IMG/VR virus record: IMGVR_UViG_2778261509_000015
Strand: one strand, 5' to 3'
Length of the DNA stretch: 33,902 nucleotides
From: a virus
Taxonomy: Duplodnaviria > Heunggongvirae > Uroviricota > Caudoviricetes
Positions 2,856 through 21,491 of the stretch are shown here, one piece after another; position 1 is the first letter of the stretch, and each line of letters opens with the position of its first letter. The notes beneath the pieces were generated by a model. That model had not been told where the DNA came from, made no database searches, and saw nothing but the letters and a program-made list of their open reading frames with translations. The position numbers and the translations under genes were made by a program.

Positions 2856-5800
2856 CGTCCACCTCCGGATAACAGCCCACCATCACGGGACTGCTGTTGC
2901 ATAAAGTCAGCTGCTGCTTTTTTCCCGAGGTCATACACCACCTTCAGTGCAGCCGGGCCTATCTGCCCGTTCGTGCCGTCATTATTAATCTCAATGTGGT
3001 ACTGCGGGGCAAACATCGCCATACCCGCACCACTGGTCGCTGCCACAACCCCCAGTTTGCCGTCAGCACCACGACGCAGTGGCAGAATGGCTTCAGGCCC
3101 GGCCTCGCCCATCACACCAGCGCCTTTTGCAAAAGCAAAAAACGTCGGACGGTTAACCACTGTGCCACTGTAGCGACTCAAATCAGCAGACTGATAAACA
3201 CCACCACAGGCATTAAAGGAAAGACTGCCGAGAACAGAACCCAGCCCCAGTGCACTACCAACGCCCTTTACTGCCTGCATCATCGCCATCTGTGCCATAA
3301 TTTTTGCCATATCCGACAACAGGGAAGAGGTGAAGGATTTAAAATTCAGCTTTCCGGTGGTACAGAACGTCGCCAGCCCGTTGCCCATGCTACTGAACGC
3401 GGTATTAAACAACTGCTCAGCGGTACCCGCCGCATTATCCGCATTCTCTGTAAAACTCTGAAAAGCCCGCATGGCACCCTTTTTCCAGTCTGCCTGCATC
3501 AGCTCCTGTTCCTGCCAGTAACGTCTGTTTTCGTTCAGTTGCCGGTTAAGACTGTCTGTCAGCGTCTGCTCAGCATTCCGGTATTCATCTGTGCCGTATG
3601 TTCCTTTCTGCTTACTGTCACGCTCCAGCTGTTCCCGCTGCTGCTGATATTTTTGTTGCAGACTGAACTGTGACTGGTATCGCTGACGCTGTTTATCCCC
3701 CATCCCTGTCGTGGCGATATCCAGGTCATGTTGCTGACGCAGAGCCCGTTCCTCTTCCGCCAGCTGGCTGGCAAGCTGAATGGATTTTTTCTTCAAATCA
3801 TTCAGCGCCGTCTGCTTCTGCAGCTCCTGCTGTTTTGCATCCAGCAGCGTCAGTGCCTGAACCAGCTCATCCTTATGCGCCAGCATGCTTTTTTCATCTG
3901 CCGTCAGCTTTTTACCGGCTAAGTCACTGATACGCTGCTGCAGGGCCAGAAGCTGTTTATGTGCTTCAGTCATCCTTTCAGTGACAATGCCTGCTGACTG
4001 TCTGGCGGCGGCAATCTGCCCCTCCACCTGCGCCTGTTGCTGGCTGTACTGCAGTAATAACCGGGTGGCCTCATCATTGCGGGTGGCAGGCGTTTTTTTC
4101 TTAATGGCTTTTTCGTAACGTTCATTTTCACGTTGTATCGCTGCATCCCTGACCGCCTGATCGGCGTACTGCATGGCATTAATACGCGCAAGTTCACGCT
4201 GATGTCGTGCTGCTTCCGTTTCATTCATCCGGTTCAGCGCAGCATTTTCAGCATTACGGCGTTTCTGTTGCTCCTGATAATTCCGCTCTGCCTGCTCTTT
4301 TGCATCCTGCAAATCCTGCTGGCGCTTTCGCTCTTTCAGCGCATCCAGTTGTTGCTGATCGTATTCCACCGTGGTGGACGCGTTCGTCCACGGAAATCTC
4401 TTCGCACGCTGAATTTTTTCCTGCAGCGCCGAAATCTGTTCATCCAGCGAGTCTTCACGACCAATATTCATGGCCGCATCCCAGAACTGCCTCCACCAGT
4501 CAGACAATGTCTGAAGCGTACTGCCCAGCGCATTGAGGTTATTATCAATATCCGCAGTACGCCGACCGGTTTCCTCTGCCAGTGCAGACATGGCTATCCG
4601 TGCAGCATCACTGGACCGTCCCTGATCCCCAAGGACACGTATCTGCTCAAGCTGAGTGGCAGTAAGAAAATGCAGCTCATTGTCCAGAGCCTTCGCGGCA
4701 TTTACAGGATCATCCTTCAGCCGCTTAAACTGATTTATGGTATCGCTGACCGACTGGCCAACCGATCGCTCCATCTGTGCGGCAGCTCTCGCCACCATAC
4801 CGATATCGTTTCCACGAAATGCACCACTCCCCACCACCTGAGCCAGCGCACCGGCTGCAGCATGTTGCGTGATACCATTCCCGGAAATAGCACGACTGAG
4901 CGTCCACAGCTGCCCGGCAGTGACTCCGGCATAATGCCCCGTCAGCGACAACTGCCGGTTAAATTCTTCCCCCTCCTTCTGACCGTCATACCAGGCTTTA
5001 CCAAGACCATAGACGGCCGCGGCAATACCGCCAATAACCCCGCCCAGCATCATGCCTTTCGGTGACATCAGTGTGTCTATCCATCCGGCACGGTTAGCCA
5101 GCGTTATCCCGGATCCCCTCAGCGCACCTAAATTGCCGCGGGCCAGTTCACCTATCAGAACGCCTATCTCCTGGCGGGCCGCTGCACTTTTCAGACCCAG
5201 CGAATGCGTGGCTTTTCCTGCCTGCTCCATTTTGCGGATATACACTTCTGCAGCACTGCTTACCCCCAGCTGGGCTGCCTTAGCACGAAGCAACTCAGAA
5301 GATGAAAGATTCTGGCGGGTTGCCTGCTCTTTAAGCTGACGGATAAACGCCACTTTCTGTCGGGTAGCCTCTTCCTCAGCCTGTGTAAGAACACGGGTTT
5401 TCGCCGTAACCTCAGAAATCAGCGCCAGATAATCCTGCTGACCAATCCCGCCACTGTTTCTGGCCTGTCGGATCTGCTGCTGAATACGCTGTAATTCCTG
5501 CAGCCCCGCACTGGCCTGTTTCACACTGTCAATCTGACGATAAAACGCAGCAGCCGCTTTATCCTGAGCCTCCGCCAGAGCCATGGCCTGCGCCTGTTCC
5601 TCGCGCATTTTCTGGCTCAGTGCCTCCATGCGCTGGCGGTTTTTTTCCACCTCGCGGGCCATGCGTTCATGAGCCTGTGTGTTCTTCTCCACCGTCTGCG
5701 CATGGACGGATGCGGCTGTTGCAGACGAAGAAGCCGCCTGCGTTGTCTGCCGGGCGGCCTGAGTCTGACGCTCCATAAAACGCTGCATACGGGCAGAAGA

Positions 5801-5914
5801 CCGTTCTGCATCGCTGGCTGCACCATTCAGAAGGTTTTTGATACGGGGAATTTCATTTTTAAACTCTGCCGCATCAATCCCCAAATCAATGACCAGGTTG
5901 GCTATCTGGTCCAT
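2852..5914 (-). CDS. H: Tail tape measure protein (lambda H-like, about 1020 aa)
   Basis: Long coiled-coil-rich ORF with Gly-rich C-terminus between GT and M; ORF track start is TTG at 5944, first ATG at 5914 preceded by GGAGGTG. Confidence 0.85.
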   Translation of the reverse strand: MDQIANLVIDLGIDAAEFKNEIPRIKNLLNGAASDAERSSARMQRFMERQTQAARQTTQAASSSATAASVHAQTVEKNTQAHERMAREVEKNRQRMEALSQKMREEQAQAMALAEAQDKAAAAFYRQIDSVKQASAGLQELQRIQQQIRQARNSGGIGQQDYLALISEVTAKTRVLTQAEEEATRQKVAFIRQLKEQATRQNLSSSELLRAKAAQLGVSSAAEVYIRKMEQAGKATHSLGLKSAAARQEIGVLIGELARGNLGALRGSGITLANRAGWIDTLMSPKGMMLGGVIGGIAAAVYGLGKAWYDGQKEGEEFNRQLSLTGHYAGVTAGQLWTLSRAISGNGITQHAAAGALAQVVGSGAFRGNDIGMVARAAAQMERSVGQSVSDTINQFKRLKDDPVNAAKALDNELHFLTATQLEQIRVLGDQGRSSDAARIAMSALAEETGRRTADIDNNLNALGSTLQTLSDWWRQFWDAAMNIGREDSLDEQISALQEKIQRAKRFPWTNASTTVEYDQQQLDALKERKRQQDLQDAKEQAERNYQEQQKRRNAENAALNRMNETEAARHQRELARINAMQYADQAVRDAAIQRENERYEKAIKKKTPATRNDEATRLLLQYSQQQAQVEGQIAAARQSAGIVTERMTEAHKQLLALQQRISDLAGKKLTADEKSMLAHKDELVQALTLLDAKQQELQKQTALNDLKKKSIQLASQLAEEERALRQQHDLDIATTGMGDKQRQRYQSQFSLQQKYQQQREQLERDSKQKGTYGTDEYRNAEQTLTDSLNRQLNENRRYWQEQELMQADWKKGAMRAFQSFTENADNAAGTAEQLFNTAFSSMGNGLATFCTTGKLNFKSFTSSLLSDMAKIMAQMAMMQAVKGVGSALGLGSVLGSLSFNACGGVYQSADLSRYSGTVVNRPTFFAFAKGAGVMGEAGPEAILPLRRGADGKLGVVAATSGAGMAMFAPQYHIEINNDGTNGQIGPAALKVVYDLGKKAAADFMQQQSRDGGLLSGGGR

Positions 5915-6215
5915 AACGCACACCTCCGGAAATACCTTCCCCAAGATGCATCAGTTCTTCGTCCGTTCGCTCCGGTATCCCGTTCTCTTCCGGTAAAAGG
6001 CTGAAATCAGCCACCGCAGCATCACTGCTGCCGGACACCATTCTCACGATCAATGCCTTCAGCGAGGCAAACTGCGCATCCATCCACACATCACTGAAGC
6101 TCTGCATCCGGAAATAATCGCCCCACTCACCAAGCTCAGTGGCCGACATTTCCGACAGCATCCGCCGCCAGTCTGCCCGCCGGAACTCCCGGGCAAGGCG
6201 CATGACAAACTGCAT
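5886..6215 (-). CDS. T-frame extension of tail assembly chaperone GT, reached by -1 frameshift from G
   Basis: 109-aa ORF in the -1 frame relative to G, overlapping G stop and H start, as in lambda G/GT; no independent RBS. Confidence 0.55.
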   Translation of the reverse strand: MQFVMRLAREFRRADWRRMLSEMSATELGEWGDYFRMQSFSDVWMDAQFASLKALIVRMVSGSSDAAVADFSLLPEENGIPERTDEELMHLGEGISGGVRYGPDSQPGH

Positions 6216-6223
6216 TTCCCGCG

Positions 6224-6240
6224 TCAGGACTTTTCCGGCG
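6224..6240 (-). promoter_or_regulatory. Candidate -1 programmed frameshift site for G to GT (CCG GAA AAG TCC TGA, slip on AAAAG)
   Basis: Minus-strand sequence ccggaaaagtcctga ends G; -1 frame continues open into the T ORF; lambda uses G GGA AAG at the same place. Confidence 0.4.
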
Positions 6241-6613
6241 TCAGCGCCTCATGCTCAAAATCCCCGGCATTCTCAATGGCTCCCATACCGCTCAGCGACA
6301 GAACCATCTCCGCCCCCGCTCCCAGGGCATCATACGACCATGTTGTAATAACGGATGCGCAAAGCGTCTCAACATCCTGAGACTGTTCCGCATTCCACAG
6401 TGAGCGGGAAACCAGCCAGGCATTGATATCCATCCCCATCCGCAGAAAAGCAATCTGTCGTTCAGCCTCCGGCAGTTCTCCCTCTTCGGCATCAAACTTT
6501 GCCGTTCGCTGCTGAACAAACGTCAGATATTCAATTCTCTGCAGCCCGGACAGCTCACTGAGCACCACGGACTGCTTTTCATAATTAAACGTGCCCTGTT
6601 TCAGAAACATCAT
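6224..6613 (-). CDS. G: Tail assembly chaperone G
   Basis: Position between V and H; MMFLKQGTF... resembles lambda G N-terminus; ATG at 6613 preceded by GGTGGAG (ORF track start 6652 is TTG). Confidence 0.8.
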   Translation of the reverse strand: MMFLKQGTFNYEKQSVVLSELSGLQRIEYLTFVQQRTAKFDAEEGELPEAERQIAFLRMGMDINAWLVSRSLWNAEQSQDVETLCASVITTWSYDALGAGAEMVLSLSGMGAIENAGDFEHEALTPEKS

Positions 6614-12584: not shown

Positions 12585-12796
12585 CAGAACCTCGCCAGCC
12601 GGTACCCGGGATGCCCACGTCGTCGTGTAATCAGAGCCGCAAGGCGGCGCTCCCACTCCTGCCGCCCCTGCCGGATCTCAGATAAGTTTTCCATGGTCAT
12701 CTGCTGACCATTAAAAGTGACGGATTTTCCGTCCAGCACCGCCATTTCAGCTTCCGTATAACGCTGAATCATGGCTTCAATATCATTCTGATTCAT
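12584..12796 (-). CDS. Head completion / head-tail joining protein (gpW-like)
   Basis: 70 aa from ATG 12796 (GGAGG 6 nt upstream), immediately after terminase large stop; lambda W-like position and size. Confidence 0.6.
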   Translation of the reverse strand: MNQNDIEAMIQRYTEAEMAVLDGKSVTFNGQQMTMENLSEIRQGRQEWERRLAALITRRRGHPGYRLARF

Positions 12797-14892
12797 AACC
12801 ATCCTCCGGAAGTCAGCCAGGGGTTAACATCGTCAGTTACTGTTTTCTTCCGTTTTTGTTTTTTAACAGGCGTGGATACCGGTTCCGGTGAGGGTGACGG
12901 TTCGGTACTGTCCGGGACACACTCCAGCCAGGTTTCCCGGCTCGCCCACTCCGGTGCATCCGGCCAGCGGATCTTTTCGTATCCATGCAGAATGACCAGA
13001 GCCTCGGCATACACCATCAGGTCAAAAGCTTCGTTGGCACCGCGACCCGGCTTACTCCATTTCCCGTCACTGCTCCGCTCTTCATACGTCAGTTCGTCGT
13101 AAAACCAGCTCCCCAGCCAGTCAGGGAAATGCACATAGCCGGGACCTGGCGAGTCACGCCATAACGCGTTATTCACCCGGTCTTTCAGGGCATCCGTCTG
13201 AAGAAGCCAGAGCGGCACATCACCTGCGGCCTGCGCCCGTCGGCCCGTTCGTCCGGTGTTATCAGGGAATGTACGGCTGATCAGTTTTGCGCGCCGGATG
13301 CTGTCGCCCTTAAACAGGTAAATACGTTTACCAAGGCCATCACGACGGCAACGACGCCAGAATTTATAGGCATTATCAGTGACCCCGTCTTCACCGCCGG
13401 AGTCCACCGCCATTGCCATCAGTCGCATTTGTTGAGAAGGATCGGAGGCCAGCGGCCAGCTTTTATGAAAAACATCTGTCAGCAGGACATCCCAGTCTTC
13501 CGGATAGCTGGCCGGATCAATTCGCTGGCTCTCCCCGTCGCAGTCACTGCGCAATGACTGCGTGATGTTGTAACGATCAATAATCCAGCGTTCGCCACGA
13601 CTGCCATAGCCTGTTACCTGAACCACAAAACGGCGATGACGTCCCGCCTGCACATCCACTGTCGCCACAAGGAAATTAACGCCATCCGGCACACTGCGGG
13701 AAGGAACTGGCTCTGCCCGCTGCTCAAGCAATTCACTTTTTCGTTGCTCCATGCTGGCACGAGGAAGATAAGGCAATCCCCAGTCGGTGTTGATAACCGC
13801 CCTGAGTGTTTCTTCGCTTCCTGTCGCTTCATACTCCTGTTCTGCAGTCAGTAATTTGTAAACCAGTTGCGCCCAGGTCTGATACGCAGCAGCTGGCCCT
13901 TCCATCCAGAAACTGGCGATACGGGAGCGGCGCGGTTCACCGGAAACGTTGCCGTTACGATCAATGACCTGACCTTCACGCAACCAGACTCCTGCACTAT
14001 TGAGCTCACGCTTTTTCTCCGCAGTGATAATGCCGCTGCAGTGCGGGCAAAGTAGATACGCCGCCTCACTGGCTTTAAAGGGATCCGGTTCATTACGGTA
14101 GCCGGTCATGGCATCCATGGCTGGCTGAAAATATTCACCGCAGTGCGGACATGGCCAGTACCAGCGGCGGCGGTCACCACGATTGTAAAGGGAAAGAATA
14201 CCAGTCGTCGGTGGCGCTTCATGAGGCGACTTACGTCGCCATTTGCTGTCGCAGATGTCACGTCCCGGCGAGCTCTCCACCAGAGTCATCCCGGCGGACA
14301 TAAATGTGGTGGTACGTTTTGAGGCCAGGGAGAAACCATCACCCTCGCTGTCGATATTCTCCGGAAAACGGTCGTAATCGGTTAAGGCGACAAACCGGTA
14401 ATCCGACGACGACATAATGTTGACCGAGGGCCAACCAATTTTAAGGAACGAGCCATCCCTGAACGTCTTATCATGAACATTATTGTCGTTACGACGTGGA
14501 CTCATTCTTTTCTTTACCGCCGCACTGCTTCTGAACGTTCTGTCGAGGCGCTTTTTAGAATGCTCGCGGGCCTTATCTTCGGTCATCTGCACAACGAGCA
14601 TGTCCGAAGGATCGCAAACGATGGTATAGACAATCCATCCATCGATCAGACCAATGGTCTTCCCTGTTCGCGCAGGACCAACAAAAATCACCGCATCGTA
14701 TTCACGCGATGCCAGGCAGTTCATGGGCTCAATGATGTAGGGTGTCAGTTCAGGATCCCATGGCACCGAGTTACCAGCCCCCTTGGGAACACGCATGAAT
14801 TTTTTAACAGCCTCCGAAATCGGCATGCGACGTGGTGGGGAAAATCCTGCCGATATGTCCCTTCCCAAATTTCGGGCTGATGAAAAACCCAT
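12793..14892 (-). CDS. Terminase large subunit (lambda gpA family)
   Basis: 699 aa; Walker A-like VGPARTGKT near N-terminus, C-terminal nuclease region; ATG at 14892 with AGGAGG 4 nt upstream. Confidence 0.9.
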   Translation of the reverse strand: MGFSSARNLGRDISAGFSPPRRMPISEAVKKFMRVPKGAGNSVPWDPELTPYIIEPMNCLASREYDAVIFVGPARTGKTIGLIDGWIVYTIVCDPSDMLVVQMTEDKAREHSKKRLDRTFRSSAAVKKRMSPRRNDNNVHDKTFRDGSFLKIGWPSVNIMSSSDYRFVALTDYDRFPENIDSEGDGFSLASKRTTTFMSAGMTLVESSPGRDICDSKWRRKSPHEAPPTTGILSLYNRGDRRRWYWPCPHCGEYFQPAMDAMTGYRNEPDPFKASEAAYLLCPHCSGIITAEKKRELNSAGVWLREGQVIDRNGNVSGEPRRSRIASFWMEGPAAAYQTWAQLVYKLLTAEQEYEATGSEETLRAVINTDWGLPYLPRASMEQRKSELLEQRAEPVPSRSVPDGVNFLVATVDVQAGRHRRFVVQVTGYGSRGERWIIDRYNITQSLRSDCDGESQRIDPASYPEDWDVLLTDVFHKSWPLASDPSQQMRLMAMAVDSGGEDGVTDNAYKFWRRCRRDGLGKRIYLFKGDSIRRAKLISRTFPDNTGRTGRRAQAAGDVPLWLLQTDALKDRVNNALWRDSPGPGYVHFPDWLGSWFYDELTYEERSSDGKWSKPGRGANEAFDLMVYAEALVILHGYEKIRWPDAPEWASRETWLECVPDSTEPSPSPEPVSTPVKKQKRKKTVTDDVNPWLTSGGWL

Positions 14893-14900
14893 TATTCCTC

Positions 14901-15428
14901 CTAGAGACTCTCTCCTTCCTCATCAGGAATTAATTCAGCAGCACAAGCCTCGTAGGATTTTTCCTGAAGAGTGTATCGCAGGTCATCAATGGCCTGCTGT
15001 ACAACGCCGACGGCCTGAGGAGTCAGGGCGCAATCGCGCTCAAGAACATCCGGAATTGTCTCCAGAACCTGGACGACAGCCTTTCTCATGGACGAATAGA
15101 CGATGACTACTTCATCAACGGGGATGAGTTTTCGCTGCTCCTTTTCCAGCTTGATCCTTTCATTTTCAGACTGGTACCAGTCCTTTCTCTCTTTCGGCTC
15201 CATACGGGATGGATCATGAACAGAGTCTGCTGCCTCATGCTTCACACTAAACAGGGCAGGCCCGACATGCTGCAGGGCGTAAACGGGGTTCCCCCTGACA
15301 GTCGCTGCCACAGGAGTGTTGGCCGCGAGGAGCCGTTTTTTTACTGTGTCCCGGTGAAGCCCAAAGGCCTCGGCGATTTTAAAAACACTCCAGTAATAAG
15401 CATCACCGATCCCGCTCACATTTGACAT
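14901..15428 (-). CDS. Terminase small subunit (Nu1-like, HTH)
   Basis: About 175 aa directly upstream of terminase large; ATG at 15428 with GGAG 8 nt upstream; DNA-binding N-terminus. Confidence 0.7.
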   Translation of the reverse strand: MSNVSGIGDAYYWSVFKIAEAFGLHRDTVKKRLLAANTPVAATVRGNPVYALQHVGPALFSVKHEAADSVHDPSRMEPKERKDWYQSENERIKLEKEQRKLIPVDEVVIVYSSMRKAVVQVLETIPDVLERDCALTPQAVGVVQQAIDDLRYTLQEKSYEACAAELIPDEEGESL

Positions 15429-15594
15429 AAGCAACTCCATCTGGCAGGTGAAAATCGGGTTTATTTATATATTTCAATTAATTGCAAACTAGTCTAATGA
15501 CAGGGAGAAAAAAATATTGTACAGGCGAAAAGAGAAATAACTTTTAATTATCAATAAATTACCGAACATGCTGCCGCCGCCATGGAAATGCAAA

Positions 15595-15630
15595 AACTAG
15601 CCTTTTTCCGCGACGCTCCCGCCCCGTGGC
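15595..15630. other. Candidate cos site (cosN-like), lambda-type variant
   Basis: Minus-strand ACGGGGCGGGAGCGTCGCGG resembles lambda cos GGGCGGCGACCTCGCGG as recalled; lies about 190 bp upstream of terminase small, as in lambda. Confidence 0.4.
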
Positions 15631-15870
15631 AAGGCCACCCCACCGGGAGGACCCATGAAAAATGAGAGCAATTATCATTTATGCTCAATTAAACATCAGC
15701 ATTATCGCAGCCCCTCACTGAAGGACTGCTGTAATGCTGATTGTTCAACATCAAAAAACCCAATCTGTTGCAAGTTATAAAAGCAACAAACGACATTGCG
15801 CGTTAAGATTTTCTTAATATTTAAGAAATATATTTTTTAATCTCATTTATTTTTGCAAAAGACTTTTCAT

Positions 15871-16446
15871 ATGCAGCGTCGAGAAATAAAGAAAATTACT
15901 TATTTAATCACTTTGATTTTAACTACTCTTTTGTTTGTTTATTTTTTAAGAACACCCACCACAATCAATATGAAACAGGCGCATAAAATAAATCAACAAC
16001 ACCAGACAATTTTCCTTATCCGTCACGGTGAACGATGTGACAGAAGCAAAAATGCATGTCTCTCAAGCAATAAAGGAATTACCGTCAATGGTGCCATTAA
16101 AGCTCGTGATTATGGAAAAATATTTAGCAATACTTTCCCGTCATTCAGCCTTTACTCCACGGATACCATACGGACAATGCAGACAGCCTGTTTTTTCTCT
16201 GGAGGAAAAGCAGCCTCCCGGATACCGTTGGCTGCAACATGCGGACTTGATGCTGCAAAGAACATACTCAAATTGTCATCCGATAATAAAACTACCGTTA
16301 TATTCACCCATAATCATTGCCTGACACAAATAGCAAAAAAAATGAAATGGTGGAAGTTAAAGCCAGAATATCTTGAAACACTGGTTCTTCATATCGAAAA
16401 CAATCGTCTCATTCTTGACGGAAAACTGACTCACGATAAAGCGTAA
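15871..16446 (+). CDS. Ais/PmrG-like histidine phosphatase (putative LPS core heptose(II)-phosphate phosphatase), N-terminal membrane anchor
   Basis: LIRHGERCDRS catalytic RHG motif, FTHNHCL motif, overall resemblance to E. coli Ais as recalled; ATG at 15871 (ORF track start 15853 is TTG); AT-rich flanks; opposite strand to late genes. Confidence 0.7.
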   Translation: MQRREIKKITYLITLILTTLLFVYFLRTPTTINMKQAHKINQQHQTIFLIRHGERCDRSKNACLSSNKGITVNGAIKARDYGKIFSNTFPSFSLYSTDTIRTMQTACFFSGGKAASRIPLAATCGLDAAKNILKLSSDNKTTVIFTHNHCLTQIAKKMKWWKLKPEYLETLVLHIENNRLILDGKLTHDKA

Positions 16447-16517
16447 CAATCATTCAAAGAGTCAACATATTTTCTGCATTAACCCCGAACAGTTCCTCTG
16501 CCGGGGTTTTGTATTAG

Positions 16518-16895
16518 TTATCGCCTCAACTGAAAATGCGGTCCGTCTTTCAGGCTAGTCCAGTCCCCGCCCCATTCGATGGCAGTTCCCAGCTCTGCGG
16601 CAGCCTGCTTAAATGCCTGCGCGATTTTCTCGTACAGAGGCCAGTCCCATGACACCTGGCTGCCAACCCAGGCCACAACATCCACCGCATCACCGGTCAG
16701 GTGGCGGCTGTTCATGGTCTGGCTCTTGCCTTCTGCAACCAGCTGTTTCTGGCGTTCTTTCGTGCGCAGGCCTTCCGTAATACCGAAATCAACCTCCGAC
16801 AGTTCAAGGGCGCGGCGAACTACAGCAACCAGCTGTGGTTTGACGCCTTCCAGATTTTTCTCGCTCCGGCGGCTGAATCTGAATTTACCCGACAT
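16518..16895 (-). CDS. Endolysin, peptidase M15-type (L-alanyl-D-glutamate / D-Ala-D-Ala peptidase fold)
   Basis: SRHLTGDAVDV and PHFQL zinc-ligand motifs; ATG at 16895 with GAGGTGA upstream (ORF track start 16901 is GTG); follows holin genes. Confidence 0.7.
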   Translation of the reverse strand: MSGKFRFSRRSEKNLEGVKPQLVAVVRRALELSEVDFGITEGLRTKERQKQLVAEGKSQTMNSRHLTGDAVDVVAWVGSQVSWDWPLYEKIAQAFKQAAAELGTAIEWGGDWTSLKDGPHFQLRR

Positions 16896-16897
16896 AT

Positions 16898-17173
16898 TCA
16901 CCTCAACAATGGAAAGATTCTTGTGACGTTCCCGCGTGCGCGTATCACCAGCACGCAGAACAGCAGATTAAAAAACACATCCAGCCAGCCCGTTGCTAAC
17001 GGGCGACCACACAGATAGCTGAGAGGCGCAAAGGCATACAGCAGCATCAGCAGCCAGGCCAGCCATGACATCAGCGGTTTATGTCTGGAATCACGGCGAC
17101 GATAAAAAAAGAGCGTCAGCACGATAACCGTGCATAACGCCACATTCAGCAATCCGGGAAGGTTACTTAACAT
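16898..17173 (-). CDS. Small 3-TM membrane protein in lysis cassette (second holin or antiholin candidate)
   Basis: ATG at 17173 with GGAGGAGG 5 nt upstream; 91 aa with three hydrophobic helices; overlaps holin stop and endolysin start. Confidence 0.45.
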   Translation of the reverse strand: MLSNLPGLLNVALCTVIVLTLFFYRRRDSRHKPLMSWLAWLLMLLYAFAPLSYLCGRPLATGWLDVFFNLLFCVLVIRARGNVTRIFPLLR

Positions 17174-17749: not shown

Positions 17750-18013
17750 TTAAGATGAATTTCCAGGTTTTGCTTAATACGTGATTAATCTCAACGTTTT
17801 TTATAGATGTTAACAACATCGGAATGATGCATCACCGGCCCTGTCAGGAAATACAAAATCTCCACCGATAATGCACCATTACGCTGTTGTAAAAAAACAG
17901 CACTGGACTGTAACCGATATCACGTATTACAGAACAGGATGTGGATAAAGATTCAGGAAAACATCCCACATATAATATGTCAGTGCCCAAAACAACTTGG
18001 TATCGTCTACTGC

Positions 18014-18088
<75 letters not shown>

Positions 18089-18505
18089 ATACTATGCGGT
18101 CTTCAGTAATCACACGAATTACCGTGAAAGCCAGCACTGGTCTTTCCGACGGTAGTAACACCCCTGTGAACACCAAAATAACCGTCTTCCAGACCGACGA
18201 GAATACTAACGACATTTTTTCAGATATCAAAAATATATTTTGTTTTTAGTTTTTAATATATGTATGCATCTGTATCAGAAATATACAATTTATATCATTA
18301 CTAAATTAAAAACATTTCTCTGACGTCTGATTAAAACGTTCCTGTTCCAGTTCCGCGCCAATCACACATGGTCATTGCGTTTTACCAGTCCATCGCCACT
18401 ATCAGGCTGACCAGGGGACGCCCCACCCGAACTGCTGAGAATGCCAGGCACACAAAGAATAATGCCCGCCAAAGCGTTCCTGCATACAATGACTGCAAAA
18501 TTCAG

Positions 18506-19249
18506 TTATTCTTGAGCGGAGCCAGAACTCATCTCACTGAATGCAGCCATCCTGTAACCTTCCGGGGTGACCCCAAAATAACGCCTGAATACACTGATAA
18601 AATAAGATGTATTATTATAGCCACACTGCACAGCGATTCTGTTGATGGCACAGCTATATTGATGCAACAGCATTGCTGCCATTCTCATTCTCTCCGTAAG
18701 CAACAACTCACTGAAACATGTGCCTTCTTCTTTCAGTCTTTTTTTTAACAAACTTTCACTCATACATAACCGTGATGACACATCTCGCAGAGTCCAGTTT
18801 GCTGCAATGTCTGTATGAAACAACGCACCAAGCCTGCCGCTGATAGTACTGATACACGCGGTCATAAACGACGAAAACATTTTATCTGATGAAAAAAACG
18901 CCAGACACGAAAAGGAAAGCATTTCCGCTAAATTGTCCGTATGAATCTTTTCCTCATAAAGATAATCAATCAGGATGCCCATCAATTCTGGCCTGGGAAA
19001 ACTCATGCAAAGATATCGTGGCATTTTCCGGACTAAAACAACATCCTGTTTTACCCCACTACGCAACAGGTAACGGCTAATTGTCGATTCACTGAGACTT
19101 ATACGCCGAAAACATTCAGAAAAGGGCAATAACGGTCCAGCCCCTCCCCTGACAAGAAGTGCACTACCACTTTCCAGAGAGAGTACTTTTCCTTCGAAGA
19201 GCACAACAAACGGGGAATGAACAAAAATAACAGAACAGGCCTCATTCAT
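18506..19249 (-). CDS. AraC/XylS-family transcriptional regulator (AppY/YdeO/GadX-like)
   Basis: C-terminal AraC HTH (IAVQCGYNNTSYFISVFRRYFGVTPEGYR); N-terminus MNEACSVIF resembles AppY; ATG at 19249 (ORF track start 19357 is GTG); AT-rich flanks. Confidence 0.8.
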   Translation of the reverse strand: MNEACSVIFVHSPFVVLFEGKVLSLESGSALLVRGGAGPLLPFSECFRRISLSESTISRYLLRSGVKQDVVLVRKMPRYLCMSFPRPELMGILIDYLYEEKIHTDNLAEMLSFSCLAFFSSDKMFSSFMTACISTISGRLGALFHTDIAANWTLRDVSSRLCMSESLLKKRLKEEGTCFSELLLTERMRMAAMLLHQYSCAINRIAVQCGYNNTSYFISVFRRYFGVTPEGYRMAAFSEMSSGSAQE

Positions 19250-19372
19250 ATCAATATCCCTGACATTACTGGTCGCAAGATAAGTATATATCACTTTACA
19301 AAAATGCAAGCCGTGAGCCCCGAATTCACGACCACCAGCGTGTTTACTGTACTGCACCAGGTTTACAGGTAC

Positions 19373-19395
19373 AAAAAAACCCGCTCGACGGCGGG
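19373..19395 (-). terminator. Hairpin CCCGC-N6-GCGGG with T7 run on minus strand, upstream of AraC gene
   Basis: Read directly: aaaaaaacccgctcgacggcgggttt. Confidence 0.5.
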
Positions 19396-19822
19396 TTTAA
19401 GCTGTGTGGCGAAGTAACCACCCTTAACAGCATAACCAATTTTTTACGTACGTAAACCTCTAAACAATATTTGTGAGAATGATATCGAGTGTTCAAAACA
19501 CCACCACAATCACATAAGGAAAAATAAACAAATAATCATTAAATAATTTCTGGCGTTATTTTTAGTGCATTTAAATTAAATAGATGAATTATAAAACGCT
19601 TATAAATAACAACCTTTAATATGATTTTGCTACCAAATTTATTTTCTTTCAGGTAATAGTCATGTACAGCATGCAATAGAAAAAGTTCAGATGAAAATAG
19701 AGATCTAGCTCACAATTTAAATAAGAATCTAAAACTTACATCTTGAATTAATCACATTGATTAGATGAATATTTGTCGCGCAGGGCATCATTTTTTAATA
19801 AATTTCAAAAAAAGGTCTCACG

Positions 19823-20920
19823 ATGAAAAAATTAACAGTGGCAATTTCTGCTGTAGCTGCATCAGTACTGTTGGCGATGTCTGCTCAGGCAGCAGAGATT
19901 TATAATAAAGACAGTAACAAACTCGATCTGTACGGAAAAGTTAATGCTAAGCACTACTTCTCCTCTAACGAGGCAGATGATGGTGACACTACTTATGTTC
20001 GTCTGGGCTTCAAAGGCGAAACCCAAATCAACGATCAGCTGACTGGTTTCGGTCAGTGGGAATACGAATTCAAAGGCAACCGTGCTGAATCTCAGGGTTC
20101 TTCCAAAGATAAAACCCGTCTTGCGTTCGCTGGCCTGAAATTCGGTGACTACGGCTCCATCGATTATGGTCGTAACTACGGTGTAGCATACGATATCGGT
20201 GCGTGGACTGACGTTCTGCCAGAATTCGGTGGTGATACCTGGACTCAAACCGACGTATTCATGACTCAGCGTGCAACTGGTGTTGCAACTTACCGTAATA
20301 ACGACTTCTTCGGTCTGGTTGATGGCCTGAACTTTGCAGCTCAGTACCAGGGCAAAAACGATCGTAGCGATTTCGAGAACTACACCGAAGGTAACGGTGA
20401 TGGCTTCGGTTTCTCTGCTACCTATGAATACGAAGGATTCGGTATCGGTGCAACTTATGCGAAATCTGATCGTACCGACACTCAAGTTTATGCAGGGAAA
20501 GTTCTTCCTGAAGTATTTGCTTCCGGTAAAAATGCAGAAGTTTGGGCCGCAGGTCTAAAATATGACGCTAACAACATTTACCTAGCCACTACCTATTCTG
20601 AAACCCAGAATATGACTGTATTTGCTGATTACTTCGTTGCTAATAAAGCTCAAAACTTCGAAGCTGTTGCACAATATCAGTTCGATTTCGGTCTGCGTCC
20701 GTCCGTTGCTTACCTGCAATCTAAAGGTAAGGATCTTGGAGTATGGGGCGATCAGGACTTAGTCAAATATGTTGATGTAGGTGCAACCTATTACTTCAAC
20801 AAAAATATGTCTACTTTCGTTGATTACAAAATCAACCTGCTTGACAAAAATGACTTCACTAAAACACTCGGTGTAAGCACTGACAACATCGTTGCTGCAG
20901 GATTGGTTTACCAGTTCTAA
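19823..20920 (+). CDS. Outer membrane general porin (OmpC/OmpF/NmpC/Lc family)
   Basis: Signal peptide [24 protein letters not shown]-terminal [18 protein letters not shown]-terminal Phe (VYQF), 365 aa; opposite strand to late genes as nmpC in DLP12. Confidence 0.9.
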
Positions 20921-21055
20921 TTTGGTTACTAAAAGATATGTTGCGGGAGGCGTTGCCTCCCCAACATATAAGTGGCTCCCTCAAGCCACTTCCTTTAGAA
21001 GCACTACCTTGCTTCTGACTATATAAACCTTCTGTTATATATTACCCTTTATTTT

Positions 21056-21080
21056 GGGGGCGTTTATACGCCCTATTTTT
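21056..21080 (+). terminator. Porin terminator (GGGCG-loop-CGCCC followed by TATTTTT)
   Basis: Read directly about 135 nt after porin stop; a second hairpin GGGAGGC-GTT-GCCTCCC sits at 20945..20961. Confidence 0.5.
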
Positions 21081-21107
21081 AATAAAATTAAGTGAACAAT
21101 TAGCGTA

Positions 21108-21491
21108 TCAATTAGACTTCGTAACAACGACATCCATCTCTAACCGGATATCTAATGCCATTAACATCCCTTCAATTATTCCCTCAGCCTTCTGTAACTT
21201 TTTCCCGATATAACCATCAGAGCAACGATGCTTACTTGCCAGTGACATGAATGTCATACCACCTACATAATAATCCACTAATAAATCGTGCAAATCGCTG
21301 TTGTTCTTTTTCAGACGGGCCATGCACCCGCAAATGATCATCGCGTCATCGTCACAACATTGCGGACGGGGTTTTACTTTTGAAGGAAGTAATCCCTTAA
21401 AACCGGCAGCAATGGACGACCAGGTCACATCCTCATGATTATTAGCCGCCCATGCCCCCCAACGTTCAAGAACCATTTGAATATCACGCAT
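21108..21491 (-). CDS. Late gene antiterminator Q (phage 82 / QuuD-like)
   Basis: ATG at 21491 with GGAGG 7 nt upstream gives [26 protein letters not shown]..., matching DLP12 QuuD as recalled; Cys-rich zinc motif. Confidence 0.85.

What the first reader, a model, noticed from the sequence alone, without database searches (positions are those of the whole stretch)
15441..16517. AT-rich moron encoding an Ais/PmrG-like histidine phosphatase between cos/terminase and the lysis cassette
A 191-aa protein with the RHGERCD catalytic motif of branch-1 histidine phosphatases and an N-terminal membrane anchor closely resembles the chromosomal Ais LPS core heptose(II)-phosphate phosphatase. It is encoded on the strand opposite to all surrounding late genes and is flanked by AT-rich DNA. 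A phage-borne copy could remodel LPS core phosphorylation in lysogens, affecting polymyxin or cationic peptide sensitivity, or acting as receptor-level superinfection exclusion.
Basis: partly seen in the sequence, partly recalled or inferred. Interest (0 to 1): 0.6.

Follow-up and report, generated by a model that had tools for sequence, protein, structure and literature searches.

The report
Prophage-borne Ais-like LPS phosphatase gene
A lambda-like prophage of pig-associated E. coli carries, between its lysis genes and its DNA-packaging site, a self-contained gene for an Ais/PmrG-type envelope phosphatase whose promoter looks like those of the host's own PmrA/BasR-controlled LPS-modification genes.

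Summary
An ORF at 15871-16446 (+), 191 aa with RHGERCD, lies antisense between the terminase/cos region and an M15 endolysin. Its DNA is 30-41% GC against 52-58% for its neighbours.

It passes the NCBIfam LPS core heptose(II)-phosphate phosphatase subfamily model (207.9 bits, cutoff 142). It fails the PmrG equivalog model (111.1 bits, cutoff 170) and is only 45% identical to K-12 Ais. The predicted fold is a SixA-like histidine phosphatase, and the catalytic Arg and His residues are invariant.

It is not a recent copy of chromosomal ais. It belongs to a phage-resident clade found at this same slot (where lambda carries bor), always antisense, in prophages with at least five different packaging modules. 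These include a Stx1 phage and an O104:H4 prophage.

Every phage copy examined except one carries a PmrA/BasR box, then 10 nt, then a -10 hexamer, 64-71 nt before the ATG. E. coli arnB, eptA, waaH and eptC show the same layout.

Best reading: a lysogenic-conversion gene that the host BasS/BasR system switches on, trimming phosphate from the LPS inner core. Enzyme substrate, regulation and phenotype are all inferred. RefSeq already annotates the gene, so this is a new member of a known kind and moderately interesting.

The parts
15585..15654 (.). GC-rich cos core of the prophage. The probable cohesive-end cut is near 15624. It belongs to the phage backbone, not to the inserted cassette.
   Evidence: The records of phages cdtI and Tritos start exactly at window 15624 and run towards the terminase genes. 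E. coli genomes with a different left neighbour share the window from 15585 onward.
15692..15745 (+). Strong conserved hairpin at the left edge of the cassette; function unknown.
   Evidence: Free energy -24.5 kcal/mol, z = -6.0, and none of 200 shuffles folded as well. The core 15694-15737 is 80-97% identical in phiP27 (L007), L013, L014 and L026, whose surrounding DNA otherwise differs.
15802..15818 (+). PmrA/BasR box-like direct repeat GTTAAG-ATTTT-CTTAAT, 69 nt before the ATG.
   Evidence: The published consensus is CTTAAG-N5-xTTAAT (PMC3973317). This site has one mismatch. The half-sites are the invariant columns in an alignment of seven diverged promoters. A box is present in all phage copies with upstream DNA except L042.
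15829..15834 (+). Predicted -10 hexamer TATATT, exactly 10 nt after the box. The predicted transcription start is near 15841.
   Evidence: The same box + 10 nt + -10 layout occurs in E. coli arnB, eptA, waaH and eptC and in all phage homologues with a box. The generic sigma-70 scan found no -35/-10 promoter here, as expected if an activator site replaces the -35 element.
15871..16446 (+). CDS for a 191-aa Ais/PmrG-family histidine phosphatase with an N-terminal signal-anchor-like segment (residues about 9-26).
   Evidence: NF011945 scores 207.9 bits against a cutoff of 142, and PF00300 scores 23.1 against 21.7. The AlphaFold model has pLDDT 92. Foldseek top hits are all histidine phosphatases, with SixA 1ujb at target-normalised TM-score 0.71. 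R51, H52, R101, H147 and H149 are invariant. dN/dS is 0.08-0.35.
16475..16513 (+). Intrinsic-terminator-like hairpin followed by UUUUGUAUU, ending the + strand gene just before the convergent endolysin stop codon.
   Evidence: Fold energy -16.1 kcal/mol, z = -2.0. On the - strand the hairpin is not followed by a U-run. The strict terminator scan did not report it, because the stem has an internal loop.
15700..16517 (+). The cassette as a unit: hairpin, promoter, CDS and terminator.
   Evidence: Homology with L011, which has a different packaging module, starts at 15700. Homology with phiP27 and the Stx2k phage, which have the same lysis cassette but no such gene, starts at 16519-16526. The GC trough matches these bounds.

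Best explanation
The region is a self-contained lysogenic-conversion cassette at the right end of a lambdoid prophage integrated at tRNA-Thr next to proA. It lies between the endolysin gene and cos, the slot where lambda and DLP12 carry bor. It encodes an Ais/PmrG-family histidine phosphatase. A basic N-terminus plus an 18-residue hydrophobic segment, with no signal-peptidase site, probably holds it in the inner membrane with the catalytic domain in the periplasm. It is read antisense to the phage late operon from its own promoter, in which a PmrA/BasR box replaces the -35 element, and it stops at its own terminator. In a lysogen it should therefore be silent until the host BasS/BasR (PmrB/PmrA) system is activated by Fe3+, Al3+ or mild acid. 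It would then be co-induced with arnB, eptA, eptC and waaH. It would then remove phosphate from the LPS inner core, most likely from heptose II as Salmonella PmrG does. That lowers surface negative charge and should favour tolerance of metal cations and cationic host peptides. Shown here: the gene, its family, fold, conserved catalytic residues, purifying selection, moron anatomy, its recurrence at this slot, and the conserved promoter architecture. Inferred: BasR binding and activation, membrane topology, the substrate, and every phenotype.
For: Family and fold: NF011945 207.9 bits against cutoff 142; His_Phos_1; model pLDDT 92 with only histidine phosphatases among the top PDB matches; R51, H52, E54, R55, C56, D57, R101, H147, N148, H149, C150 and H174 invariant across 24 homologues. 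Selection: dN/dS 0.08-0.35, with synonymous sites often saturated. Moron anatomy: GC trough, antisense orientation, terminator, and absence from phiP27 and the Stx2k phage, which share the lysis cassette at 92-94% identity. Recurrence: homologues of 55-86% identity sit between the lysis and packaging genes, antisense, alongside DUF1441+GpA, ParB/TAGT/Terminase_2, HNH/Terminase_4/TerL, Nu1+GpA and 933W-type terminases. There are also 22 IMG/VR viral contigs. In an NJ tree the phage copies form one clade, separate from chromosomal Ais and IncI1 TraG. Promoter: box (at most 1 mismatch) + 10 nt + -10 lies 64-71 nt before the ATG in every phage copy with upstream DNA but one, in at least 7 sequence variants. 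The half-sites and -10 are the invariant columns in the promoter alignment. The same layout occurs in arnB, eptA, waaH and eptC. The composite motif occurs once in the 33.9-kb window. In about 800 kb of fetched DNA (both strands) it occurs only at these promoters, at arnB and eptA, and at 2 stray sites. Its chance of occurring in 110 nt of similarly AT-rich DNA is 0.0023. Chemistry: PmrG dephosphorylates HepII, and removing that phosphate reduces peptide killing (PMC8129183, PMC3720879).
Against: No experiment on this protein or any phage copy was found. It fails the PmrG equivalog model (111.1 bits against 170) and is only 45% identical to Ais, so the substrate could differ. The first half-site in the window reads GTTAAG rather than CTTAAG. 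Taken alone, the box is not enriched in the window (2 found, 1.55 expected). One phage copy (L042) has lost half-site 1. The -10 assignments in the control promoters are my reading of the sequences, not mapped transcription starts. Signal anchor versus cleaved signal peptide rests on a simple hydrophobicity and -3/-1 check. Relatives in fimbrial operons and in IncI1 transfer regions hint at a role linked to surface organelles rather than charge tolerance.
Confidence: 0.6

Rival explanations
1. Same enzyme family but a different envelope substrate: another phosphate on LPS or a periplasmic phospho-molecule, such as HepI phosphate or pyrophosphoethanolamine, lipid A 1-diphosphate, or a phosphorylated intermediate used in assembling surface structures.
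For: It fails the PmrG equivalog cutoff. It is 45% identical to Ais and sits in a separate clade. Paralogues accompany fimbrial operons, an AIDA-I autotransporter region and the IncI1 transfer region. No structure or biochemistry exists for the family.
Against: It scores well above the curated subfamily cutoff. It shares every invariant residue with Ais. It has a promoter of the kind that drives LPS-modifying genes.
Confidence: 0.2
2. The gene mainly serves the phage. By changing the LPS inner core of the lysogen it blocks adsorption of competing phages (receptor-level exclusion) or limits loss of progeny on cell debris.
For: The same prophage also carries an OmpC/NmpC-like porin and an AraC-type regulator in a second AT-rich island, which suggests general outer-membrane remodelling. 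The gene persists in the phage gene pool across many backbones.
Against: A promoter tied to a metal/acid-sensing host system, rather than constitutive or phage-controlled expression, fits a host-benefit conditional trait better. There is no hit in PADLOC. No adsorption data exist.
Confidence: 0.12
3. It is an AfrS-type factor that, directly or indirectly, controls expression of fimbriae or adhesins, not primarily an LPS charge modifier.
For: A truncated identical copy in strain UMNF18 was deposited as 'transcriptional activator AfrS'. The sister clade sits at the 3' end of Pef/AF-R1-type fimbrial operons, after an EAL-domain gene. From memory (Cantey et al. 1999, not retrievable here), AfrS was needed with AfrR for AF/R1 pilus expression.
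Against: The window has no fimbrial operon. The prophage's AraC-type regulator resembles YdeO (about 35% identity), and no homologue of it was named AfrR. The protein has a phosphatase fold with an export signal and no DNA-binding domain. I could not obtain the AfrS sequence, so the name is untested.
Confidence: 0.06
4. It is a decaying passenger with no current function.
For: Some copies are truncated: 150 aa in UMNF18/L025 and 128 aa in L040. One promoter has decayed (L042). The window allele occurs in only 29 of 5426 complete E. coli genomes.
Against: The reading frame is intact, the catalytic residues are invariant, dN/dS is 0.08-0.35, and the promoter elements are conserved despite saturated synonymous divergence.
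Confidence: 0.02

Closest known systems
Ais (E. coli) / PmrG (Salmonella): PmrA-activated LPS core heptose(II)-phosphate phosphatase
   Same: Same NCBIfam subfamily (PRK15416), same size, same RH(G/A)ERCD and THNHC motifs, and an export signal. The promoter is of PmrA/BasR type.
   Different: Only 45% identical and in a separate clade. It fails the PmrG equivalog cutoff. It is carried by a phage rather than lying next to the arn operon. The hydrophobic N-terminus lacks the Ala-x-Ala type cleavage site that Ais has.
Lambda bor / DLP12 borD moron
   Same: Same slot, between the last lysis gene and cos. Same antisense orientation inside the late transcription unit, with independent signals and an envelope-directed product. 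The bor position is from general knowledge.
   Different: Bor is a small lipoprotein linked to serum resistance, not an enzyme. From memory, unverified here, borD is PhoP-activated; here the wiring is to PmrA/BasR.
Phage-encoded O-antigen modification in lysogenic conversion (gtrABC glucosylation, Oac acetylation)
   Same: A temperate phage changes the LPS of its lysogen.
   Different: Those systems decorate the O-antigen and act as receptor-level exclusion. This gene would act on an inner-core phosphate, under a host stress-sensing two-component system. No such phage function was found in the literature searched, and PHROGs has no family for it.
IncI1 plasmid TraG and the AfrS-position genes of Pef/AF-R1-type fimbrial operons
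   Same: Paralogues of the same family on mobile elements.
   Different: 37% (TraG) and about 50% (fimbrial type) identical to the window protein. They lie inside operons without a PmrA box. TraG is dispensable for conjugation (PMC4288162).

Membership tests
Histidine phosphatase superfamily, branch 1 (PF00300) | Profile match above the curated cutoff | tested here: met
   23.1 bits against 21.7. The match is marginal and covers only the N-terminal third of the profile.
Histidine phosphatase superfamily, branch 1 (PF00300) | RHG motif with nucleophilic His, a second Arg and a second His | tested here: met
   R51-H52-G53, R101, H147 and H149 are present, and all but G53 (nearly invariant) are invariant in 24 homologues.
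Histidine phosphatase superfamily, branch 1 (PF00300) | Alpha/beta fold of the superfamily | tested here: met
   Model pLDDT 92.1. The top 50 Foldseek PDB hits are all histidine phosphatases (SixA, PGAM5, PspA-type, MutT1 C-terminal domain), E down to 2e-7.
Ais/PmrG LPS core heptose(II)-phosphate phosphatase | Subfamily model NF011945 (PRK15416) above cutoff | tested here: met
   207.9 bits against 142, covering positions 6-199 of 201.
Ais/PmrG LPS core heptose(II)-phosphate phosphatase | Equivalog model NF052369 (PmrG) above cutoff, i.e. same function inferred by NCBI rules | tested here: not met
   111.1 bits against 170.
Ais/PmrG LPS core heptose(II)-phosphate phosphatase | Export to the periplasmic side | tested here: inconclusive
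   A basic n-region plus an 18-residue hydrophobic core (mean Kyte-Doolittle 2.26), followed by RTP with no small-x-small site. This is a heuristic only. Invariant C56 and C150 and nearly invariant C63 are compatible with periplasmic disulfides.
Ais/PmrG LPS core heptose(II)-phosphate phosphatase | PmrA/BasR-activated transcription | tested here: inconclusive
   In silico only. The box + 10 nt + -10 layout is conserved and matches arnB, eptA, waaH and eptC. There are no binding or expression data.
Ais/PmrG LPS core heptose(II)-phosphate phosphatase | Removes the phosphate from heptose II of the LPS core | not testable with these tools
   Needs core oligosaccharide mass spectrometry.
Phage moron | Absent from related phages whose flanking genes are otherwise the same | tested here: met
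   phiP27 and phiSTEC1575-Stx2k share the holin-holin-endolysin block at 92-94% identity but carry other small ORFs after it. Homology starts at 16519-16526.
Phage moron | Own promoter and terminator, and distinct base composition | tested here: met
   Promoter-like elements at 15802-15834, a terminator at 16475-16513, and GC 0.30-0.41 against 0.52-0.58. Function of the signals is inferred.
AfrS (AF/R1 pilus regulator) | Encoded with AfrR beside an AF/R1-type fimbrial operon | tested here: not met
   The window has no fimbrial genes. The nearby AraC-type regulator is YdeO-like. The AfrS reference sequence was not obtainable.

The most novel reading that the evidence does not exclude
Lambdoid phages of E. 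coli maintain a dedicated, long-resident clade of Ais-like phosphatase genes in the bor slot. Its promoter has been kept compatible with the host PmrA/BasR regulon. As a result, prophages in porcine ETEC, Stx phages and the O104:H4 outbreak lineage add an inducible LPS inner-core dephosphorylation step to the host's envelope stress response. This would measurably change tolerance to Fe3+ or host cationic peptides, gut colonisation, or phage and colicin susceptibility.
Probability: 0.35. Interest if true: 0.6.

Novelty: new member of a known kind. Interest (0 to 1): 0.45.

Why it matters
Few prophage genes are known to be switched on directly by host global regulators; a review of Salmonella prophages says only a handful have been identified (PMC7380047). 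Here a phage cargo gene appears to carry the same activator-site geometry as the host's own LPS-modification genes, and it has kept that geometry while the coding sequence diverged to 55% identity. If confirmed, this would be a clear example of a phage gene plugged into a host two-component regulon. It would also be the first phage-borne modifier of the LPS inner core, as opposed to the O-antigen. It is present in pathogens of veterinary and clinical concern: porcine ETEC, a Stx1 phage, and E. coli O104:H4. The predictions are cheap to test.

Tried and rejected
1. AfrR/AfrS pair idea. I tested whether the prophage's AraC-type regulator (18506-19357, -) pairs with the phosphatase as an AfrR/AfrS module. 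Its relatives are YdeO-like (about 35% identity) and none is named AfrR, so I rejected the idea. Searches for AfrS literature found nothing usable, and Cantey 1999 is not held in the library.

2. PmrA box alone. One-mismatch matches are not enriched in the window (2 found, 1.55 expected). Only the composite motif (box + 10 nt + -10) and its conservation across homologues carry weight.

3. Generic scans. The sigma-70 and terminator scans found nothing in 15300-16700. The promoter lacks a -35 element, and the terminator stem has an internal loop that the strict scan excludes.

4. Sequence search of the PDB gave no hit, so fold comparison was needed.

5. Rfam gave no credible RNA family in 15300-16700.

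6. PHROGs and PADLOC have no matching family.

7. Displaced spanin idea. I considered whether the cassette had displaced a spanin gene. The small ORFs that follow the same endolysin in phiP27 and the Stx2k phage do not look like spanins, so no claim is made.

8. Chromosomal ais promoter. No composite motif lies upstream of E. coli ais in its own orientation. The box in the ais-arnB intergenic region faces arnB.

Full report
**What is in the sequence**

The + strand holds an ORF from 15853 (TTG) or 15871 (ATG) to 16446. The 191-aa form starts MQRREIKKITYLITLILTTLLFVYFLRTP and contains IRHGERCD and IFTHNHC. Every neighbouring gene is on the - strand:
- GpA-type large terminase, 12793-14892
- DUF1441 small terminase, 14901-15440
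- M15 endolysin, 16518-16901
- two holins

GC drops to 0.30-0.41 over 15300-16500, against 0.52-0.58 on either side.

The window is 100% identical to a prophage of E. coli RM10740 (feral pig), integrated at tRNA-Thr beside proA.

The phage cos region is about 15585-15654; the records of phages cdtI and Tritos begin at window 15624. The inserted cassette is about 15700-16517.

**What the protein is**

- It passes the NCBIfam subfamily model NF011945/PRK15416 (207.9 bits, cutoff 142).
- It fails the PmrG equivalog model (111.1 bits, cutoff 170).
- It just passes Pfam His_Phos_1.
- It is 45% identical to K-12 Ais over 159 residues.
- No PDB sequence matches.
- An AlphaFold model built from 24 homologues is confident (pLDDT 92.1). 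Its 50 best Foldseek PDB matches are all histidine phosphatases. SixA 1ujb gives a target-normalised TM-score of 0.71.
- Across homologues down to 35% identity, R51, H52, E54, R55, C56, D57, R101, H147, N148, H149, C150 and H174 are invariant.
- Pairwise dN/dS among phage copies is 0.08-0.35, with synonymous sites often saturated.
- The N-terminus has a basic stretch, an 18-residue hydrophobic core, then RTP. It lacks the small-x-small motif that K-12 Ais has (GTHA|AW). A signal anchor is therefore more likely than a cleaved signal peptide, but this rests on a heuristic only.
- The family is small: 118 of 1.84 billion cluster representatives match at E <= 1e-3.

**Where its relatives live**

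The window allele is in 29 of 5426 complete E. coli genomes. The listed examples are mostly porcine ETEC. Relatives fall into five contexts:

1. Chromosomal ais, divergent from arnB.
2. TraG of IncI1 plasmids, between traF and traH. It is about 97% conserved in roughly 1350 plasmids and dispensable for transfer (PMC4288162).
3. The last gene of Pef/AF-R1-type fimbrial operons, after an EAL-domain gene, on pCROD1 and IncF plasmids.
4. An IS-flanked copy on an IncF plasmid that also carries an AIDA-I autotransporter gene a few kb away.
5. Prophages.

The prophage copies are 55-86% identical to the window protein. They always sit between the end of the lysis cassette and the packaging genes, and always antisense. 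The flanking modules differ:

| Locus | Packaging or lysis module |
|---|---|
| window | DUF1441 + GpA |
| L011 | ParB_N / TAGT / Terminase_2 |
| L013 | HNH / Terminase_4 / TerL |
| L014, L015, L042 | Nu1 + GpA; L015 and L042 have a lysozyme (with Rz or Rz1) lysis cassette |
| Stx1 phage GER2 and an stx-less prophage of O104:H4 | 933W-type terminase |

The GER2-type allele is present in 43 of 5426 genomes. IMG/VR holds 22 viral contigs with a relative. In a neighbour-joining tree the phage copies form one clade. The IS-flanked plasmid copy nests inside it. The fimbrial-operon copies are its sister group, and chromosomal Ais and IncI1 TraG lie apart. The gene is therefore not a recent capture of ais. 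It is a long-term resident of the lambdoid gene pool, at the slot where lambda carries bor.

**Moron anatomy**

Phages phiP27 (Stx2e) and phiSTEC1575-Stx2k share the holin-holin-endolysin block at 92-94% identity. After the endolysin they carry other small ORFs, and homology to the window begins at 16519-16526. Homology with L011, whose left neighbour differs, begins at 15700.

A hairpin followed by UUUUGUAUU at 16475-16513 (-16.1 kcal/mol) ends the + strand gene. The - strand version has no U-tract.

**The promoter**

Sixty-nine nt before the ATG lies GTTAAG-ATTTT-CTTAAT (15802-15818). The published PmrA box is CTTAAG-N5-xTTAAT (PMC3973317). Exactly 10 nt further on is TATATT (15829-15834).

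Taken alone the box is not significant in the window: 2 matches found against 1.55 expected. The supporting evidence is as follows:

- Every phage copy with upstream DNA, in at least seven sequence variants, has a box with at most one mismatch, then 10 nt, then an xAxxxT hexamer, 64-71 nt before the ATG. The exception is L042, where half-site 1 has decayed.
- In an alignment of seven diverged promoters, most invariant columns fall in the two half-sites and the -10 hexamer. The rest are two Ts just after the box, a few positions near the ribosome-binding site, and the start codon.
- I read the same box + 10 nt + -10 layout in four E. coli genes of the PmrA/BasR regulon:

| Gene | Box | -10 hexamer |
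|---|---|---|
| arnB | CTTAAGGTTAAGTTAAT | TAAAAT |
| eptA | CTTAAGGTTGGCTTAAT | GAGCAT |
| waaH | CTTAATAGTTTCTTAAT | TAAAAC |
| eptC | CTTCAGATATCCTTAAG | TACATT |

- In waaH and eptC the box starts 65 and 64 nt before the start codon.
- The composite motif occurs once in the window. In about 800 kb of fetched DNA (both strands) it occurs only at these phage promoters, at arnB and eptA, and at two stray sites.
- Its chance of occurring in 110 nt of similarly AT-rich DNA is 0.0023.
- Paralogues inside fimbrial operons or the IncI1 tra region have no box.

Regulation by BasR is thus a well-supported prediction, not a demonstrated fact. The -10 assignments in the control promoters are my own reading of the sequences.

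**Most likely mechanism**

In the lysogen the cassette would be transcribed independently of the phage late operon when BasS/BasR is activated. The enzyme, facing the periplasm, would remove a phosphate from the LPS inner core. By homology with PmrG the target is the HepII phosphate (Nishino 2006, as cited in PMC8129183 and PMC3720879).

Loss of that phosphate through waaY mutation makes Salmonella 2-4 logs more tolerant of LL-37 and two other cationic peptides, at a fitness cost of about 1% (PMC3720879). By contrast, deleting pmrG in a PmrA-constitutive E. coli left polymyxin B resistance unchanged (PMC8129183).

The alternatives are listed with the rival explanations: a different envelope substrate, receptor-level exclusion of other phages, an AfrS-like effect on adhesins, or decay.

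**Comparison with what is known, and novelty**

The protein works like Ais/PmrG and belongs to that subfamily, but it is not an equivalog. The cassette works like lambda bor: same slot, same orientation, same independence.

The gene is already named in RefSeq and in the GER2 record. Its presence in prophages is therefore visible in public data, though PHROGs v4 has no family for it. I found no paper that discusses it.

I rate it a new member of a known kind. The conserved PmrA-type promoter and the fixed phage slot are new, testable observations. Interest is moderate.

Noticed in passing
window 17820-21100: A second AT-rich island (GC 0.26-0.44) lies between the Q antiterminator (21108-21491, -) and the holins. 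It holds tRNA-Gly(tcc) at 18014-18088 (-), a YdeO-like AraC-family regulator at 18506-19357 (-), and an OmpC/NmpC-like porin at 19823-20920 (+). Phages phiP27 and phiSTEC1575-Stx2k, which have the same lysis cassette, carry their stx genes in this slot. With the phosphatase, the prophage carries three cargo genes aimed at the outer membrane or its regulation.
   Followed up: partly
window 15692-15745: A strong hairpin (-24.5 kcal/mol, z = -6). Its core is 80-97% identical in phiP27 (between the HNH gene and L33), L013, L014 and L026, where the surrounding DNA differs. No U-tract follows it on either strand, and it matches no Rfam family. Its function is unknown.
   Followed up: partly
window 16049-16446 versus L013 and L014: There is mosaicism inside the gene. 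From 16049 through the lysis genes, L013 and L014 are 82-86% identical to the window at the DNA level. The 5' third of the gene and the promoter are too diverged to align, so the overall protein identity is about 63%. This implies recombination within the coding sequence among phage alleles.
   Followed up: partly
L009 (IncI1 plasmid pSKLX3330) 5001-5585; about 1350 plasmids: The IncI1 transfer gene traG, between traF and traH, is a paralogue of Ais (37% identical to the window protein). It is nearly invariant across IncI1 plasmids of Escherichia, Salmonella, Shigella and Klebsiella, although transposon sequencing scored it dispensable for conjugation.
   Followed up: partly
L005 (C. rodentium pCROD1) 5914-6507; L010 7914-8507: Another paralogue clade is the last gene of Pef/AF-R1-type fimbrial operons, directly after an EAL-domain gene. 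This is probably the source of the 'AfrS' name given to a truncated copy of the window gene in strain UMNF18.
   Followed up: partly
L042 about 3930-3960; L025; L040: Signs of decay appear in some phage copies. In L042 half-site 1 of the PmrA box is lost (CAAAAAG in place of CTTAAG). The copies in L025 (UMNF18 type) and L040 are truncated to 150 and 128 aa.
   Followed up: no
L046 about 4931-4963 (chromosome of Enterobacteriaceae bacterium H11S18): A chromosomal homologue in another enterobacterial species (46% identical) has a degenerate box, GATAAT-GTTCC-CTTAAG, then 10 nt and AATAAT, 70 nt before its ATG. The promoter layout may therefore predate the phage clade.
   Followed up: no
window 15655-15780 (+): A 41-codon Cys-rich ORF (MKNESNYHLCSIKHQHYRSPSLKDCCNADCSTSKNPICCKL) overlaps the hairpin, between cos and the phosphatase promoter. 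There is no evidence that it is a gene.
   Followed up: no
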